A DNA stretch of 64,000 nucleotides from the human T2T-CHM13v2.0 reference genome, Homo sapiens, in the NCBI RefSeq assembly GCF_009914755.1, contig NC_060929.1; one strand, given 5' to 3'. The notes under the pieces were generated by a model, which ran no database searches, was not told where the DNA came from, and saw nothing but the letters and a program-made list of their open reading frames with translations. Positions within the stretch are counted from its first letter, which is position 1. Each line of letters opens with the position of its first letter. The translations under genes were made by a program, and so were the position numbers. Shown one piece after another: positions 3,278 to 8,101 of the stretch.

Positions 3278-3384
3278 AAATTCAAAGTAACTTTAGACTT
3301 ACAGATTGAGGGGAGGGGGTGGAATTTTTAGTCCAGATTAATGTGTGTTTTAATGGATGCACTCTGAGAATCCAAAGATGGCTC

Positions 3385-3841
3385 CCTCAATGTGCACTCA
3401 TAACAGAACAAGAAATCACATCAGTTTTTACATCAAAGGGCACCTTCTATGACAAAAACCATTGTTAATGAGGCAGATGCCTCTGGAGGAAACACTGTAA
3501 AAAGCCTTCCAGCAGAATGGACCGCTTCCCAGTCCCTCAACTGCTTCTGATGTTTCTTCTCATCTACAAAAGTAAAATACAGTGTACAGTAACCTTTTAA
3601 TCAAAACACAGCATCATGGATGGAGACAAAGCCTGTTGCTGATGGTTGTTGCTGTTCAGCAGCTGACACGGGTATTCTAGTGATGCTACTGTGCTGCTTA
3701 GTTACCCTGAGCACATGATTTTTTCACTGTGTTAATGGTATGTCATACTTTTCCTGTTAAGTATTAATGTGTGGATAAGTGTAAGCAAATGATTGTTTAT
3801 CAGTAGCATATAAATTCGTAGTCAGGAATCATGGTGAAGCC
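3385..3841 (+). mobile_element. Tigger4/Zombi-like DNA transposon remnant, 5' part (split by the SVA)
   Basis: cagtgtacagtaaccttttaatcaaaacacagcatc...gctactgtgctgcttagttaccctga resembles the recalled Tigger4 consensus and continues after the SVA. Confidence 0.7.
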
Positions 3842-6309
3842 GCTCTCCCTCTCCCTCTCCCTCTCCCTCTCCCTCCTCCTCCCCCTCCCCCTCCCCCTCC
3901 CCCTCCCCCTCTCCCTCCACGGTCTCCCTCTGATGCCGAGCCAAGGCTGGACGGTACTGCTGCCATCTCGGCTCACTGCAACCTCCCTGCCTGATTCTCC
4001 TGCCTCAGCCTGCCGAGTGCCTGCGATTGCAGGCGCGCACCGCCACGCCTGACTGGTTTTCGTTTTTTTTTGGTGGAGACGGGGTTTCGCTGTGTTGGCC
4101 GGGCTGGTCTCCAGCTCCTAGCCGCGAGTGATCCGCCAGCCTCGGCCTCCCGAGGTGCCGGGATTGCAGATGGAGTCTCGTTCACTCAGTGCTCAATGGT
4201 GCCCAGGCTGGAGTGCAGTGGCGTGATCTCGGCTCGCTGCAACCACCTCCCAGCCGCCTGCCTTGGCCTCCCGGAGAGCCGAGATTGCAGCCTCTGCCCG
4301 GCAGCCACCCCGTCTGGGAAGTGAGGAGCGTCTCTGCTTGGCCACCCATCGTCTGGGATGTGAGGAGCCCCTCTGCCTGGCTGCCCAGTCTGGAAAGTGA
4401 GGAGCGTCTCTGCCCGGCCGCCATCCCATCTGGGAAGCGAGGAGCGCCTCTTCCCCGCCGCCATCCCATCTAGGAAGTGAGGAGCGTCTCTGCCCGGCCG
4501 CCCATCGTCTGAGATGTGGGGAGCAGCTCTGCCCCGCCGCCCTGTCTGGGATGTGAGGAGCGCCTCTGCTGGGCCGCAGCCCTGTCTGGGAGGTGGGGAG
4601 CGTCTCTGCCCGGCCGCTCCGTCTGAGAAGTGAGGAAACCCTCTGCCTGGCAACCGCCCCGTCTGAGAAGTGAGGAGCCCCTCCGTCCGGCAACCACCCC
4701 GTCTGGGAAATGAGGAGCGTCTCCGCCCAGCAGCCACCCCGTCCGGGAGGGAGGTGGGGGGGATCAGCCCCCCGCCCGGCCAGCCGCCCCGTCCGGGAGG
4801 TGAGGGGCTCCTCTGCCCGGCCGCCCCTACTGGGAAGTGAGGAGCCCCTCTGCCCGGCCAAACGCCCCATCCGGGAGGGAGGCGGGGGGGGGGGGGTCGG
4901 CCAGCCGCCCCGTCCGGGAGGGAGGTGGGGGGGTCAGCCCCCCGCCCGGCCAGCCGCCCCGTCCGGGAGGTGAGGGGCTCCTCTGCCCGGCCGCCCCTAC
5001 TGGGAAGTGAGGAGCCCCTCTGCCCAGCCAGACGCCCCGTCCAGGAGGGAGGTGGGGGGGGTCAGCCCCCCGCCCGGCCAGCCGCCCAGTCCGGGAGGGA
5101 GGTGGGGGGTCAGCCCCCCGCCCGGCCAGCCGCCCCGTCTGGGAGGGAGGTGGGGGGATCAGCCCCCCGCCTGGCCAGCCGCCCCATCCGGGAGGTGAGG
5201 GGCGCCTCTGCCCGGCCGCCCCTACTGGGAAGTGAGGAGCCCCTCTGCCCGGCCAGCCGCCCCGCCCGGGAGGGAGGTGGGGGGGTCATCCCCCCACCTG
5301 GCCAGCCGCCCCATCCGGGAGGGAGGTGGGGGGGTCAGCCCCCCGCCCGGCCAGCCGCCCCGTCCGGGAGGGGGGAGGGGGGGTCAGCCCCCTGCCCGGC
5401 CAGCCGCCCCGTCCGGGAGGGAGGTGGGGGGGGTCAGCCCCCCTTCCGGCCGGCCGCCCCGTCCGGGAGGTGAGGGGCGCCTCTGCCCGGCCGCCCCTAC
5501 TGGGAAGTGAGGACCCCTCTGCCCGGCCAGCTGCCCCGTCCGGGAGGGAGGTGGGGGGGACAGCCCCCCGCCCAGCCAGCCGCCCTATCCAGGAGGTGAG
5601 GGGCGCCTCTGCCCGGCCGCCCCTACTGGGAAGTGAGGAGCCCCTCTGCCTGGCCAGCCGCCCCGTCCGGGAGGGTGGTGGGGGGGTCAGCCCCCGCCCG
5701 GCCAGCCGCCCCATCCGGGAGGTGAGGGGCGCTTCTGCCCGGCCGCCCCTACTGGGAAGTGAGGAGCCCCTCTGCCCGGCCACGACCCCGTCTGGGAGGT
5801 GTGCCCAGCGGCTCATTGGGGATGGGCCATGATGACAATGGCGGTTTTGTGGAATAGAAAGGCGGGAAGGGTGGGGAAAAAATTGAGAAATCGGATGGTT
5901 GCCGGGTCTGTGTGGATAGAAGTAGACATGGGAGACTTTTCATTTTGTTCTGTACTAAGAAAAATTCTTCTGCCTTGGGATCCTGTTGTTCTGTGACCTT
6001 ATCCCCAACCCTGTGCTCTCTGAAACATGTGCTGTGTCCACTCAGGGTTAAATGGATTAAGGGCGGTGCAAGATGTGCTTTGTTAAACAGATGCTTGAAG
6101 GCAGCATGCTCGTTAAGAGTCATCACCACTCCCTAATCTTAAGTACCCAGGGACACAAACACTGCGGAAGGCCAAGGCCGCAGGGTCCTCTGCCTAGGAA
6201 AACCAGAGACCTTTGTTCACTTGTTTATCTGCTGACCTTCCCTCCACTATTGTCCTATGACCCTGCCAAATCCCCCTCTGCGAGAAACACCCAAGAATGA
6301 TCAATAAAA

Positions 6310-6340
<31 letters not shown>
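3842..6340 (+). mobile_element. Full-length SVA retrotransposon (SVA_E-like), sense to BHMT
   Basis: (CCCTCT)n hexamers ~3842-3918, antisense Alu-like domain ~3919-4290, GC-rich VNTR ~4290-5800, SINE-R ~5800-6302, AATAAA 6303-6308, poly(A) to 6340. Perfect TSD AGGAATCATGGTGAAGCC at 3824-3841 and 6341-6358. Confidence 0.98.
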
Positions 6341-6341
<1 letters not shown>

Positions 6342-6358
6342 GGAATCATGGTGAAGCC

Positions 6359-6470
6359 AAACAACCACAGACTGCCCACACAGGTGGCTGAGATTGACAC
6401 CTTTGCTTTTTAATGTCTGATAGGCAACTTTGTGTGCTGCATGAAATTATTTAAAATATTATATAATTTT
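6359..6470 (+). mobile_element. Tigger4/Zombi-like remnant, 3' part
   Basis: aaacaaccacagactgcccacacaggtggctgagattgacacctttgcttt...aaattatttaaaatatt continues the element interrupted at 3841. Confidence 0.7.
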
Positions 6471-6546
6471 TAAATGGTTCCATGATATAAAGACCAAAGC
6501 TAGGGGAGGAGTCTGTTGTCTGGTGTCATGTGTTTTGTTCACACAG

Positions 6547-6730
6547 GGCCAGGAAGGAATACTGGGAGAATCTTCGGATAGCCTCAGGCCGGCCATACAA
6601 CCCTTCAATGTCAAAGCCAGATGGCTGGGGAGTGACCAAAGGAACAGCCGAGCTGATGCAGCAGAAAGAAGCCACAACTGAGCAGCAGCTGAAAGAGCTC
6701 TTTGAAAAACAAAAATTCAAATCACAGTAG
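6547..6730 (+). CDS. BHMT: BHMT terminal coding exon (exon 8), coding part 184 bp
   Basis: Acceptor tgttttgttcacacag|G. Phase fits exon 7 (AG+G = Arg). Translates [60 protein letters not shown] with stop TAG at 6728-6730. The C-terminal extension after SKPD distinguishes BHMT from the shorter paralogue BHMT2. Confidence 0.98.
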
Positions 6731-7429
6731 CCTCGATAGAAGCTATTTTTGATGAATTTCTAGGTGTTTGGGTCACAGTTCCTACAAATACGGAAAAGGG
6801 GGTTAAAAAGCAGTGCTTTCATGAATGCCATCCTACACATATTATTGCTATTACCTGAACAAAATAGAATTACAAATAGCACTTGATAATTTTAAAGTAT
6901 GTTTTAGAAATTTTCTTAGGAGCAAAATAAGTACAAAGTAAATCTTGAACAGGTTCACTAAGCACCCACCCTGTGAAAAGTATTATGGAAATCACTGCAG
7001 CACAGGAAAAGTAATTCAGATGTTAATGCCACTTGAAGAAGTTGGTAGGCTAGCAAAGAGGATGAGACATGAACTGTCATAAAGGACTCAGCAACCAGCC
7101 AGGGACAGATAAAGCGCTATGGAAAGGGGCTTCCAAGTTCTTTTGAACATGACCCTTAGTAACAAACACAATTTATATAATGACCCAGCAAAACACATCA
7201 CATCTTACTGTCGAAATTAAATGTGTGATCCATCCTAGTATTTTCTGTTCCATTCCTTTTCATTCTATTTCATTTATAAAACATGCTAGTTGAGACTTTT
7301 CAAATGGATTTTTATGACCCACTACTGGGTTTGGATCCACAGTTTGAAAAATATTGCTACAAGACACTTAAGGAGACCATCCTGTTTAAGTTTATTCTTA
7401 TAAGTAGGTCAGTCATATGAGACCTGATC

Positions 7430-7435
7430 AATAAA
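7430..7435 (+). terminator. Candidate proximal polyadenylation signal (AATAAA)
   Basis: AATAAA inside the 3' UTR, followed about 30 nt later by ttcttctgtttcgtg. Usage cannot be seen from the sequence. Confidence 0.35.
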
Positions 7436-7877
7436 TATCCAATACCCAGAGTCCTGCTCTCAGAGTTCTTCTGTTTCGTGACCCACTTTTCTACCAGTAA
7501 AAGACATAGACCAATGGGGAGGAGGGGAGGAGAGATGGATATTTCAGCCCTCTCCATCCTAGTCAACACTGGATCCACCTAGTGCCTCTGGGCCATAAGG
7601 CTGAGCAGAGTGAGCTTGTATTAGTTGGTAGCTTTTAAAAAATATAATAAGAAAAAAGTAGAGATTCTCCAAACTCTAGCCTGGTTTCCTAGATTGAGAA
7701 CTATGATATTTTTCTCTGATAATTTAATATCTACTCTCCTACAAAAGCTCAAGCCTGAAGATACAAGACTATTAGAAGAAACATGACTACCCTCAGTGTA
7801 TTAGAAAAGAGGTCATGCAGCTTTCTAAACATTATTGAATTGTTTGAGCTGTTTTGAAATTGTAATTCTTTTCAGCT

Positions 7878-7883
7878 ATTAAA
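7878..7883 (+). terminator. Probable main BHMT polyadenylation signal (ATTAAA)
   Basis: ATTAAA at 7878-7883, with a downstream U/GU-rich element ttgcttgtattttattctt at about 7905-7923. Confidence 0.65.
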
Positions 7884-8101
7884 AAGAAGAGCAATGAGAC
7901 TATATTGCTTGTATTTTATTCTTATCCTGGTTCTACAATTTGCTAAGTCTTACATGAAACCTCTATACCTCAATTTCTTCACCTATTTAAAAGAAAAACC
8001 TACTTCACAAGTATGCTGGAATTTTAAAGGAGCAGGTGGCAGTATTTAAAAGGAAAAGAGGCCCTACTGGCTCTTTCTGGAGAGCCAGTCAGGGAATTCT
8101 A

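What the first reader, a model, noticed from the sequence alone, without database searches (positions are those of the whole stretch)
3824..6358. Full-length young SVA in the last BHMT intron, probably a non-reference polymorphic insertion
Seen: all SVA domains are present, the 18-bp TSD is perfect, CpGs are retained, and the element splits a Tigger4-like fossil. The SINE-R start (CCCAGCGGCTCATTGGGGATGGGCC) fits my recollection of the human-specific SVA_E subfamily. The intron here is 5469 bp, and removing the SVA plus one TSD leaves 2952 bp. I recall the reference intron being about 3 kb, which is unverified. Inference: this is a presence/absence variant that adds about 2.5 kb of CpG-dense, KRAB-ZNF-targeted sequence inside a one-carbon-metabolism gene. 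It is a candidate causal variant for BHMT-locus expression or metabolite associations.
Basis: partly seen in the sequence, partly recalled or inferred. Interest (0 to 1): 0.8.

Follow-up and report, generated by a model that had tools for sequence, protein, structure and literature searches.

The report
Common SVA insertion in BHMT intron
A full-length, very young SVA retrotransposon sits in the last intron of the BHMT gene in this genome; it appears to be a common human presence/absence variant that is missing from the older reference genome and was catalogued once under the wrong name ("Alu"), so it is real but ordinary.

Summary
Window 3842-6340 is a complete 2,499-bp SVA: hexamer, Alu-like region, about 1.5 kb of VNTR, SINE-R, AATAAA and poly(A). 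It lies in sense to BHMT, between perfect 18-bp target-site duplications, 188 nt upstream of exon 8. It interrupts an old interspersed repeat; 8 of 8 paralogous copies that match both flanks run straight through the site with one copy of the target.

It belongs to an SVA_E-type lineage and lacks the 11-bp deletion that marks SVA_F. Its nearest kin are a 13-copy sub-lineage sharing a 6-bp duplication. It shows one private substitution in 501 nt of SINE-R.

The GTEx mobile-element call set (Cao 2020) lists a non-reference insertion called against GRCh38, allele frequency 0.05-0.95. Anchored on rs3733890, that call lies within 3 bp of this site. It is typed "ALU", most likely a mistyping caused by the SVA's Alu-like 5' part. 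It is an eQTL for BHMT in three tissues but was not fine-mapped as causal for BHMT.

The non-reference polymorphism claim is therefore supported indirectly. The causal-variant claim stays open. I could not align to GRCh38 or ape genomes. Interest is low to moderate.

The parts
3824..3841 (+). 5' target-site duplication (18 nt)
   Evidence: Identical to 6341-6358 (D7). Present once in 8 of 8 paralogous host-repeat copies that match both flanks.
3842..3918 (+). Leading G, then a CCCTCT-type hexamer array: the 5' end of a full-length SVA
   Evidence: TRF period 6, 12.7 copies, 3843-3918. Homology to sibling SVAs starts at 3842-3845 in 6 of the 10 merged siblings and at 3837-3921 across all 10.
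3919..4290 (+). Alu-like domain (antisense Alu fragments)
   Evidence: Window 3919-4300, which spans this domain, is 382/382 identical to two other genomic copies. It matches 62 Alu-type repeats in the window at about 72-75% identity (top 12 rows seen), 46 of them in minus orientation. It has no 11-nt deletion relative to 5 sampled SVAs, and has a 3-nt deletion at 4242/4243 shared by 30/30 E-like copies.
4291..5805 (+). VNTR, about 1.5 kb, 76% GC, 114 CpGs
   Evidence: TRF arrays with periods 37, 40, 49 and 50 and their multiples. Composition. It differs in length and sequence from every sibling copy.
5806..6306 (+). SINE-R domain with polyadenylation signal AATAAA at 6303-6308
   Evidence: All 39 non-self scored genomic copies are 98-100% identical. 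The alignment of the 29 fetched copies shows one private substitution (T at 5989) and a 6-nt duplication at 6168-6173 shared with 12 other exact copies.
6307..6340 (+). Poly(A) tail, interrupted by T residues
   Evidence: Read directly. It abuts the 3' TSD with no transduced sequence between.
6341..6358 (+). 3' target-site duplication (18 nt)
   Evidence: D7.
3388..3841 (.). 5' part of the old interspersed repeat that the SVA split
   Evidence: Paralogs match at 74-82% identity up to the insertion point.
6359..6466 (.). 3' part of the same old repeat
   Evidence: Paralogs continue directly from the target site for about 108 nt more.
6547..7902 (+). BHMT exon 8 (last exon). Its acceptor lies 188 nt downstream of the 3' TSD.
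   Evidence: Hub annotation. The AG|GG junction was read.

Best explanation
This is a full-length SVA retrotransposon of the human-specific SVA_E type. It was copied into the last intron of BHMT by the LINE-1 machinery (target-primed reverse transcription), in the same orientation as the gene, and it still segregates in people as a common presence/absence allele. CHM13 carries it and GRCh38 does not.

Shown:
- The anatomy, the TSD, and the single-copy target in paralogs.
- Near-identity to a small, very young lineage.
- A catalogued common non-reference insertion at the same place.

Inferred:
- The GTEx 'ALU' call is this SVA.
- The subfamily name.
- Human specificity.

Likely effect: mostly neutral. 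It adds 2.5 kb and 151 CpGs of normally methylated, repressor-targeted DNA, plus a sense-strand AATAAA 240 nt ahead of the last exon. So a modest effect on BHMT transcript level or 3'-end choice is possible. The published fine-mapping attributes the BHMT eQTL signal to linked variants rather than to the insertion.
For: Anatomy and insertion:
- Complete domain structure.
- Perfect 18-nt TSD.
- 8 of 8 paralogs with both flanks carry the target once.
- Homology to siblings begins close to the 5' TSD (3837-3845 in 7 of 10 merged copies) and ends near the 3' TSD (6335-6348).

Youth:
- The SINE-R differs at one private position from 29 aligned copies.
- The Alu-like domain is 382/382 identical to two copies.
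- The 6-nt duplication marks 13 exact copies genome-wide, with 0 in the reversed control.

E type:
- The SINE-R start 25-mer occurs 117 times, against 1,466 copies of a conserved SINE-R 30-mer.
- Against 6 evenly picked chr1 SVAs, 13 columns separate the 30 E-like copies from at least 4 of the 6, and 10 of the 13 lie in the first 116 nt. This fits the passages of Damert 2018 (PMC6139936) stating that 12 residues separate E from D and that 11 of them are lost in 5'-truncated copies.
- No 11-bp Alu-like deletion, the stated SVA_F hallmark.

Polymorphism:
- Cao 2020 supplementary file 7 lists 5_78426549_INS_ME_ALU.
- Its methods state alignment to GRCh38, MELT-SPLIT for elements absent from the reference, AF 0.05-0.95, and lift-over to hg19.
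- rs3733890 is at hg19 chr5:78421959. Its published primers and codon 239 map to window -770.
- The distance from that anchor to the site is 4,593 in CHM13 and 4,590 in hg19.

ALU typing: explained by Alu homology of 3919-4290.
Against: - The catalogued call is typed ALU, not SVA, and there is a 3-bp offset.
- I never saw the empty allele in GRCh38 or any ape genome.
- No SVA-typed record for this site was found in the supplements searched. Several of those files were truncated or unread, and my hg38 search prefixes rest on a recalled coordinate offset.
- The subfamily name rests on comparison with unlabelled genomic copies plus a published description, not on a consensus library.
- All three BHMT eQTL rows have isCausal False.
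Confidence: 0.88

Rival explanations
1. The GTEx call is a genuine, separate Alu insertion at nearly the same nucleotide. On this reading the CHM13 SVA is a different, possibly rare or private allele, so nothing is known about its frequency.
For: The record is typed INS_ME_ALU. The anchor-based position differs by 3 bp. No SVA-typed record for the site was found.
Against: - Two independent insertions within 3 bp would be a coincidence.
- The SVA's 5' part matches Alus over about 240 nt, so read pairs from it would map to an Alu reference.
- In the same study only 69 common non-reference SVAs passed filters against 2,157 Alus (Table 1), which is compatible with poor SVA typing.
Confidence: 0.07
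2. The SVA is in the reference and fixed or nearly fixed. The reader's idea of a shorter reference intron is a false memory.
For: None from tools. I could not align to GRCh38.
Against: A non-reference insertion called against GRCh38 at AF 0.05-0.95 maps to the site. Near-zero divergence from siblings fits a very recent insertion.
Confidence: 0.03
3. The SVA itself drives BHMT-locus expression or metabolite associations. Possible routes are enhancer activity, spreading methylation, or use of its sense-strand poly(A) signal and splice sites.
For: - Positive eQTL for BHMT in testis (beta 0.54, FDR 3.4e-5), oesophagus muscularis (0.35, FDR 0.0038) and tibial nerve (0.27, FDR 0.020).
- Flagged causal and highest for SCAMP1-AS1 in skin.
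- Sense AATAAA at 6303 and 151 CpGs.
- The locus carries betaine and DMG GWAS signals. A cleft-lip paper states that the driving SNPs differ between studies.
Against: - isCausal is False for all three BHMT rows.
- No sQTL row in the held part of the sQTL table, and no liver or kidney row in the held part of the eQTL table.
- The effect is positive, not the loss expected from premature polyadenylation.
- No paper links BHMT with an SVA or a mobile element insertion.
Confidence: 0.08

Closest known systems
SVA_E subfamily (for example element H19_27, the retrotransposition-competent reporter of Raiz et al. 2012, PMC3287187; passages read)
   Same: Canonical hexamer / Alu-like / VNTR / SINE-R structure, full length, polymorphic in humans. 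The SINE-R 5' part differs from other SVAs at a cluster of positions.
   Different: This copy belongs to a 13-copy sub-lineage with a 6-nt duplication in SINE-R. I could not locate H19_27 in this genome: its primers were not found in the held supplements. So there is no direct comparison with a named SVA_E.
SVA_F / SVA_F1
   Same: Young, human-specific, full-length SVAs that are also polymorphic.
   Different: [quoted passage not shown] The intact hexamer and Alu-like 5' end rule out the MAST2-exon form F1.
Common intronic SVA polymorphisms with trait effects, for example the ASIP SVA (PMC11319198; search listing and abstract only)
   Same: A roughly 3-kb SVA presence/absence allele inside an intron of a metabolically or physiologically relevant gene.
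   Different: For BHMT there is no trait association traced to the SVA, only an eQTL not fine-mapped to it.
Disease-causing deep-intronic SVA_E, for example ASPA in Canavan disease (PMC12596875; search listing and abstract only)
   Same: An SVA_E inside an intron that can in principle disturb splicing or polyadenylation.
   Different: The BHMT allele is common (AF 0.05-0.95) and goes with higher, not lower, expression. That argues against strong disruption.

Membership tests
SVA retrotransposon | Composite order: hexamer repeat, antisense Alu-like, VNTR, SINE-R, AATAAA, poly(A) | tested here: met
   All domains are homologous to other genomic SVAs.
SVA retrotransposon | L1-type insertion hallmarks: target-site duplication and a 3' poly(A) directly at the TSD | tested here: met
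   18/18 TSD. Single-copy target in 8 of 8 paralogs.
SVA_E | SINE-R diagnostic substitutions relative to SVA_D (12 per Damert 2018, 11 of them lost in 5'-truncated copies) | tested here: inconclusive
13 columns separate the 30 E-like copies from at least 4 of 6 sampled SVAs, and 10 of the 13 lie in the first 116 nt. No labelled consensus was available, so the positions could not be matched one to one.
SVA_E | Human-specific (absent at orthologous sites in apes) | not testable with these tools
   No ape genome is held. Polymorphism in humans makes sharing with apes unlikely.
SVA_F | [quoted passage not shown] | tested here: not met
   Only a 3-nt gap relative to 5 of 5 sampled copies. The hallmark is as stated in PMC6139936.
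SVA_F1 | 5' hexamer and Alu-like region replaced by MAST2 exon 1 | tested here: not met
   Hexamer and full Alu-like domain are present.
Non-reference polymorphic mobile element insertion | Absent from GRCh38 and segregating in populations | tested here: met
   Indirect. A GTEx MELT non-reference call, AF 0.05-0.95, lies within 3 bp by the rs3733890 anchor. It is typed ALU. No direct alignment to GRCh38 was possible.
Tigger4 (host repeat) | Match to the Tigger4 consensus, terminal inverted repeats | not testable with these tools
   Shown only to be an old repeat with at least 359 candidate copies at about 80% identity.

The most novel reading that the evidence does not exclude
The SVA, mistyped as an Alu and therefore overlooked, is the functional variant behind part of the BHMT-locus associations (betaine/dimethylglycine levels, selenium, orofacial clefts). 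It could act through allele-specific intronic polyadenylation or exon trapping just ahead of the last exon, or through methylation of 151 new CpGs. In CHM13 it sits on the Gln239 haplotype, so some effects credited to R239Q may really tag the SVA.
Probability: 0.06. Interest if true: 0.6.

Novelty: already known. Interest (0 to 1): 0.3.

Why it matters
BHMT remethylates homocysteine using betaine. The BHMT/BHMT2/DMGDH cluster shows repeated association signals whose causal variants are unsettled; passages in PMC6557678 and PMC12389381 say so.

A common 2.5-kb CpG-rich insertion in sense orientation, 188 nt from the last exon, is absent from GRCh38-based SNP analyses and was labelled an Alu in the one call set I found. 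It deserves correct genotyping in liver and kidney eQTL and metabolite studies.

In itself it is one of thousands of polymorphic SVAs, and nothing here shows that it acts.

Tried and rejected
- **Literature, main text:** no paper joins BHMT with SVA, retrotransposon or mobile element insertion in a relevant way. No paper holds the site coordinates.
- **Supplements with no record of the site:**
  - Spirito 2019, 4 files.
  - van Bree 2022, 7 files held as text, file 1 unread.
  - BMC Biol 2020 insertion catalogue, 2 files.
  - Gardner 2017 MELT, 15 files held, files 1 and 13-15 unread.
  - HGSVC3 2025, 2 files held, file 1 unread and file 2 cut, one irrelevant numeric hit.
  - The hg38 prefixes used in these searches rest on a recalled hg19-to-hg38 offset, so these negatives are weak.
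- **Papers not held:** two ids, intended as Kojima 2023 and Ebert 2021.
- **Named SVA_E exemplar:** the primers for H19_27 were not in the held supplements, so no named exemplar could be located.
- **Source element:** no sibling matches through the VNTR. The best are 95.3% over 2,522 columns and 97.6-98.2% over the first 1.6 kb, so no source can be named.
- **Rfam:** no family at gathering score in 3300-6700.
- **Larger SVA sample:** A 6-copy sample fitted and contained no copy with the 11-bp deletion. The SVA_F test is therefore relative to non-F copies only.

Full report
**What is there.** Window 3842-6340 (+) reads as a complete SVA.

- It starts with a G followed by CCCTCT-type hexamers (3842-3918; TRF period 6, 12.7 copies).
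- The Alu-like domain follows (3919-4290), then about 1.5 kb of GC-rich VNTR (about 4291-5805; TRF periods 37-50 and multiples).
- The SINE-R domain is 5806-6306 with AATAAA at 6303, followed by an interrupted A-tail (6307-6340).
- The 18-mer AGGAATCATGGTGAAGCC flanks it on both sides (3824-3841 and 6341-6358), 18/18 identical with spacing 2,517.
- The element lies in sense to BHMT. The 3' TSD ends 188 nt before the exon 8 acceptor at 6547 (hub annotation; junction read).

**It is an insertion, not a chance repeat.**

- The 5' flank belongs to an old interspersed repeat: 359 candidate copies, 40 scored, and the 39 non-self hits are 79-83% identical.
- I fetched 11 paralogs. All 11 match the 5' flank and 8 also match the 3' flank. 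In all 8, the two matches overlap by exactly the 18-nt target, so the uninterrupted repeat carries the target once.
- The host fragment spans about 3388-3841 and 6359-6466. I could not test the name 'Tigger4'.
- Homology to sibling SVAs starts close to the 5' TSD (window 3837-3845 in 7 of the 10 merged siblings, 3863-3921 in the other 3) and ends at 6335-6348, close to the 3' TSD. There is therefore no 5' or 3' transduction.
- The bottom-strand nick site reads TTCCT|GA, a degenerate L1 endonuclease site. This is my reading, and an inference.

**How young, and which kind.**

- The SINE-R query found 1,930 candidates in the genome, of which 40 were scored, all at 98-100% identity.
- In an alignment with the 29 fetched copies, this copy has a single private state: T at 5989, where 29 of 29 others have A.
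- It shares a 6-nt duplication (6168-6173) with a small lineage. The 25-mer across the duplication occurs 13 times in the genome and 0 times in the reversed control.
- Its Alu-like domain is 382/382 identical to two of those copies.
- Ten lineage members whose Alu-like and SINE-R hits could be paired are all full length, about 2.25-2.6 kb (coordinates). None matches through the VNTR, so no source element can be named.

*Subfamily.*

- The 25-mer at the SINE-R start occurs 117 times, against 1,466 occurrences of a conserved SINE-R 30-mer.
- I picked six SVAs at even steps from the first 100 chr1 hits. Their SINE-R is 93.1-95.6% identical to this copy.
- 13 columns separate all 30 E-like copies from at least 4 of the 6, and 10 of the 13 fall in the first 116 nt.
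- This fits the passages of Damert 2018 (PMC6139936) that I read: 12 residues distinguish SVA_E from SVA_D, and 11 of them are lost in 5'-truncated copies.
[quoted passage not shown] Here only a 3-nt gap, shared by 30/30 E-like copies, separates the element from 5 of 5 sampled copies.
- I conclude E type, not F or F1. The name still needs a repeat library. My recollection of the E consensus agrees but is not evidence.

**Is it non-reference and polymorphic?** I had no GRCh38 or ape sequence, so I used print.

- Supplementary file 7 of Cao et al. 2020 (PMC7385971; the eQTL table, 26,955 rows held, file truncated) contains the variant 5_78426549_INS_ME_ALU.
- The methods passages state that GTEx reads were aligned to GRCh38, that MELT-SPLIT called elements absent from the reference, that only loci with allele frequency 0.05-0.95 were kept, and that coordinates were lifted to hg19.
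- To place that coordinate I needed an anchor. Table 1 of PMC3271217 gives rs3733890 (R239Q) at chr5:78421959. Its published primers map 190 bp apart onto the exon 6 stretch I fetched and enclose codon 239 at window -771 to -769.
- From the SNP to the base before the 5' TSD is 4,593 bp in CHM13. From the SNP to the MELT position is 4,590 bp in hg19.
- A 3-bp difference over 4.6 kb is within small-indel and breakpoint tolerance. I take the two as the same site.
- The label ALU is the main discrepancy. The SVA's Alu-like domain matches 62 Alu-type repeats in this window at about 72-75% (top 12 rows seen) over about 240 nt. The same study passed only 69 common non-reference SVAs against 2,157 Alus. 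Mistyping is therefore the simplest reading, but it is an inference.
- Other supplements gave no record of the site. Several files were truncated or unread.

**What it does.**

- ENSG00000145692 is BHMT. The variant is a positive eQTL for it in three tissues: testis (beta 0.54, FDR 3.4e-5), oesophagus muscularis (0.35, FDR 0.0038) and tibial nerve (0.27, FDR 0.020). All three rows carry isCausal False.
- It is flagged causal and highest only for ENSG00000245556 (SCAMP1-AS1) in skin.
- It has a weak negative row for ENSG00000164309 in fibroblasts. I recall that gene as CMYA5; this is unverified.
- No row appears in the held part of the sQTL table.
- The element adds 151 CpGs (o/e 0.53, against 0.27 for the window; 19% of the window's 780 CpGs) and a sense-strand AATAAA. 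Methylation effects or intronic polyadenylation are therefore conceivable.
- Its high frequency and the positive effect argue against strong disruption.
- My best reading is a largely neutral young insertion that tags a regulatory haplotype.

**Novelty.** The insertion is in a public assembly and in at least one public call set, and it is one of thousands of polymorphic SVAs, so I file it as already known. No paper in the searched library discusses it in its main text. The useful residue is practical:

- It seems to be mislabelled as an Alu.
- It lies 188 nt from the last exon of a gene with unsettled association signals (passages).
- In CHM13 it shares a haplotype with Gln239.

Noticed in passing
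L043 3229-3231 (window -771 to -769; BHMT exon 6): CHM13 carries CAA (Gln) at codon 239, the minor A allele of rs3733890 (R239Q). The SVA and Gln239 are therefore on one haplotype in this genome. Their LD in populations is unknown.
   Followed up: partly
window 6168-6173, and 12 other places in G000: A 6-nt duplication in SINE-R marks a 13-copy sub-lineage of E-type SVAs. Ten members that could be measured are full length (2.25-2.6 kb) with long VNTRs. Three Alu-like substitutions (4121, 4239, 4274) are shared by 15 of the 30 E-like copies, including this one.
   Followed up: partly
G000 C2:27581488-27581989 and C2:27599585-27600085, both minus strand: Two members or near-members of that sub-lineage lie only 18 kb apart on chromosome 2. 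This could be a local duplication or two independent insertions.
   Followed up: no
L025 1501-1995 and 2837-3326 (G000 C14, about 16.84 Mb): Two SINE-R copies about 840 nt apart, both in the + orientation of the locus. One is 98.4% and the other 93.8% identical to the query. This looks like an SVA pair or a duplicated structure.
   Followed up: no
Cao 2020 supplementary file 7, row 8284: The same insertion is flagged as the causal and highest-probability variant for SCAMP1-AS1 expression in non-sun-exposed skin. From memory that gene lies several hundred kb away. This is unexplained.
   Followed up: no
BHMT gene span (hub: -15421 to 7902, 23,324 bp): From memory, the GRCh38 gene is about 20.5 kb. 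If so, CHM13 is longer by about 2.8 kb, roughly 0.3 kb more than the SVA explains. That would suggest a second, Alu-sized difference elsewhere in the gene. This is recollection only and was not checked.
   Followed up: no
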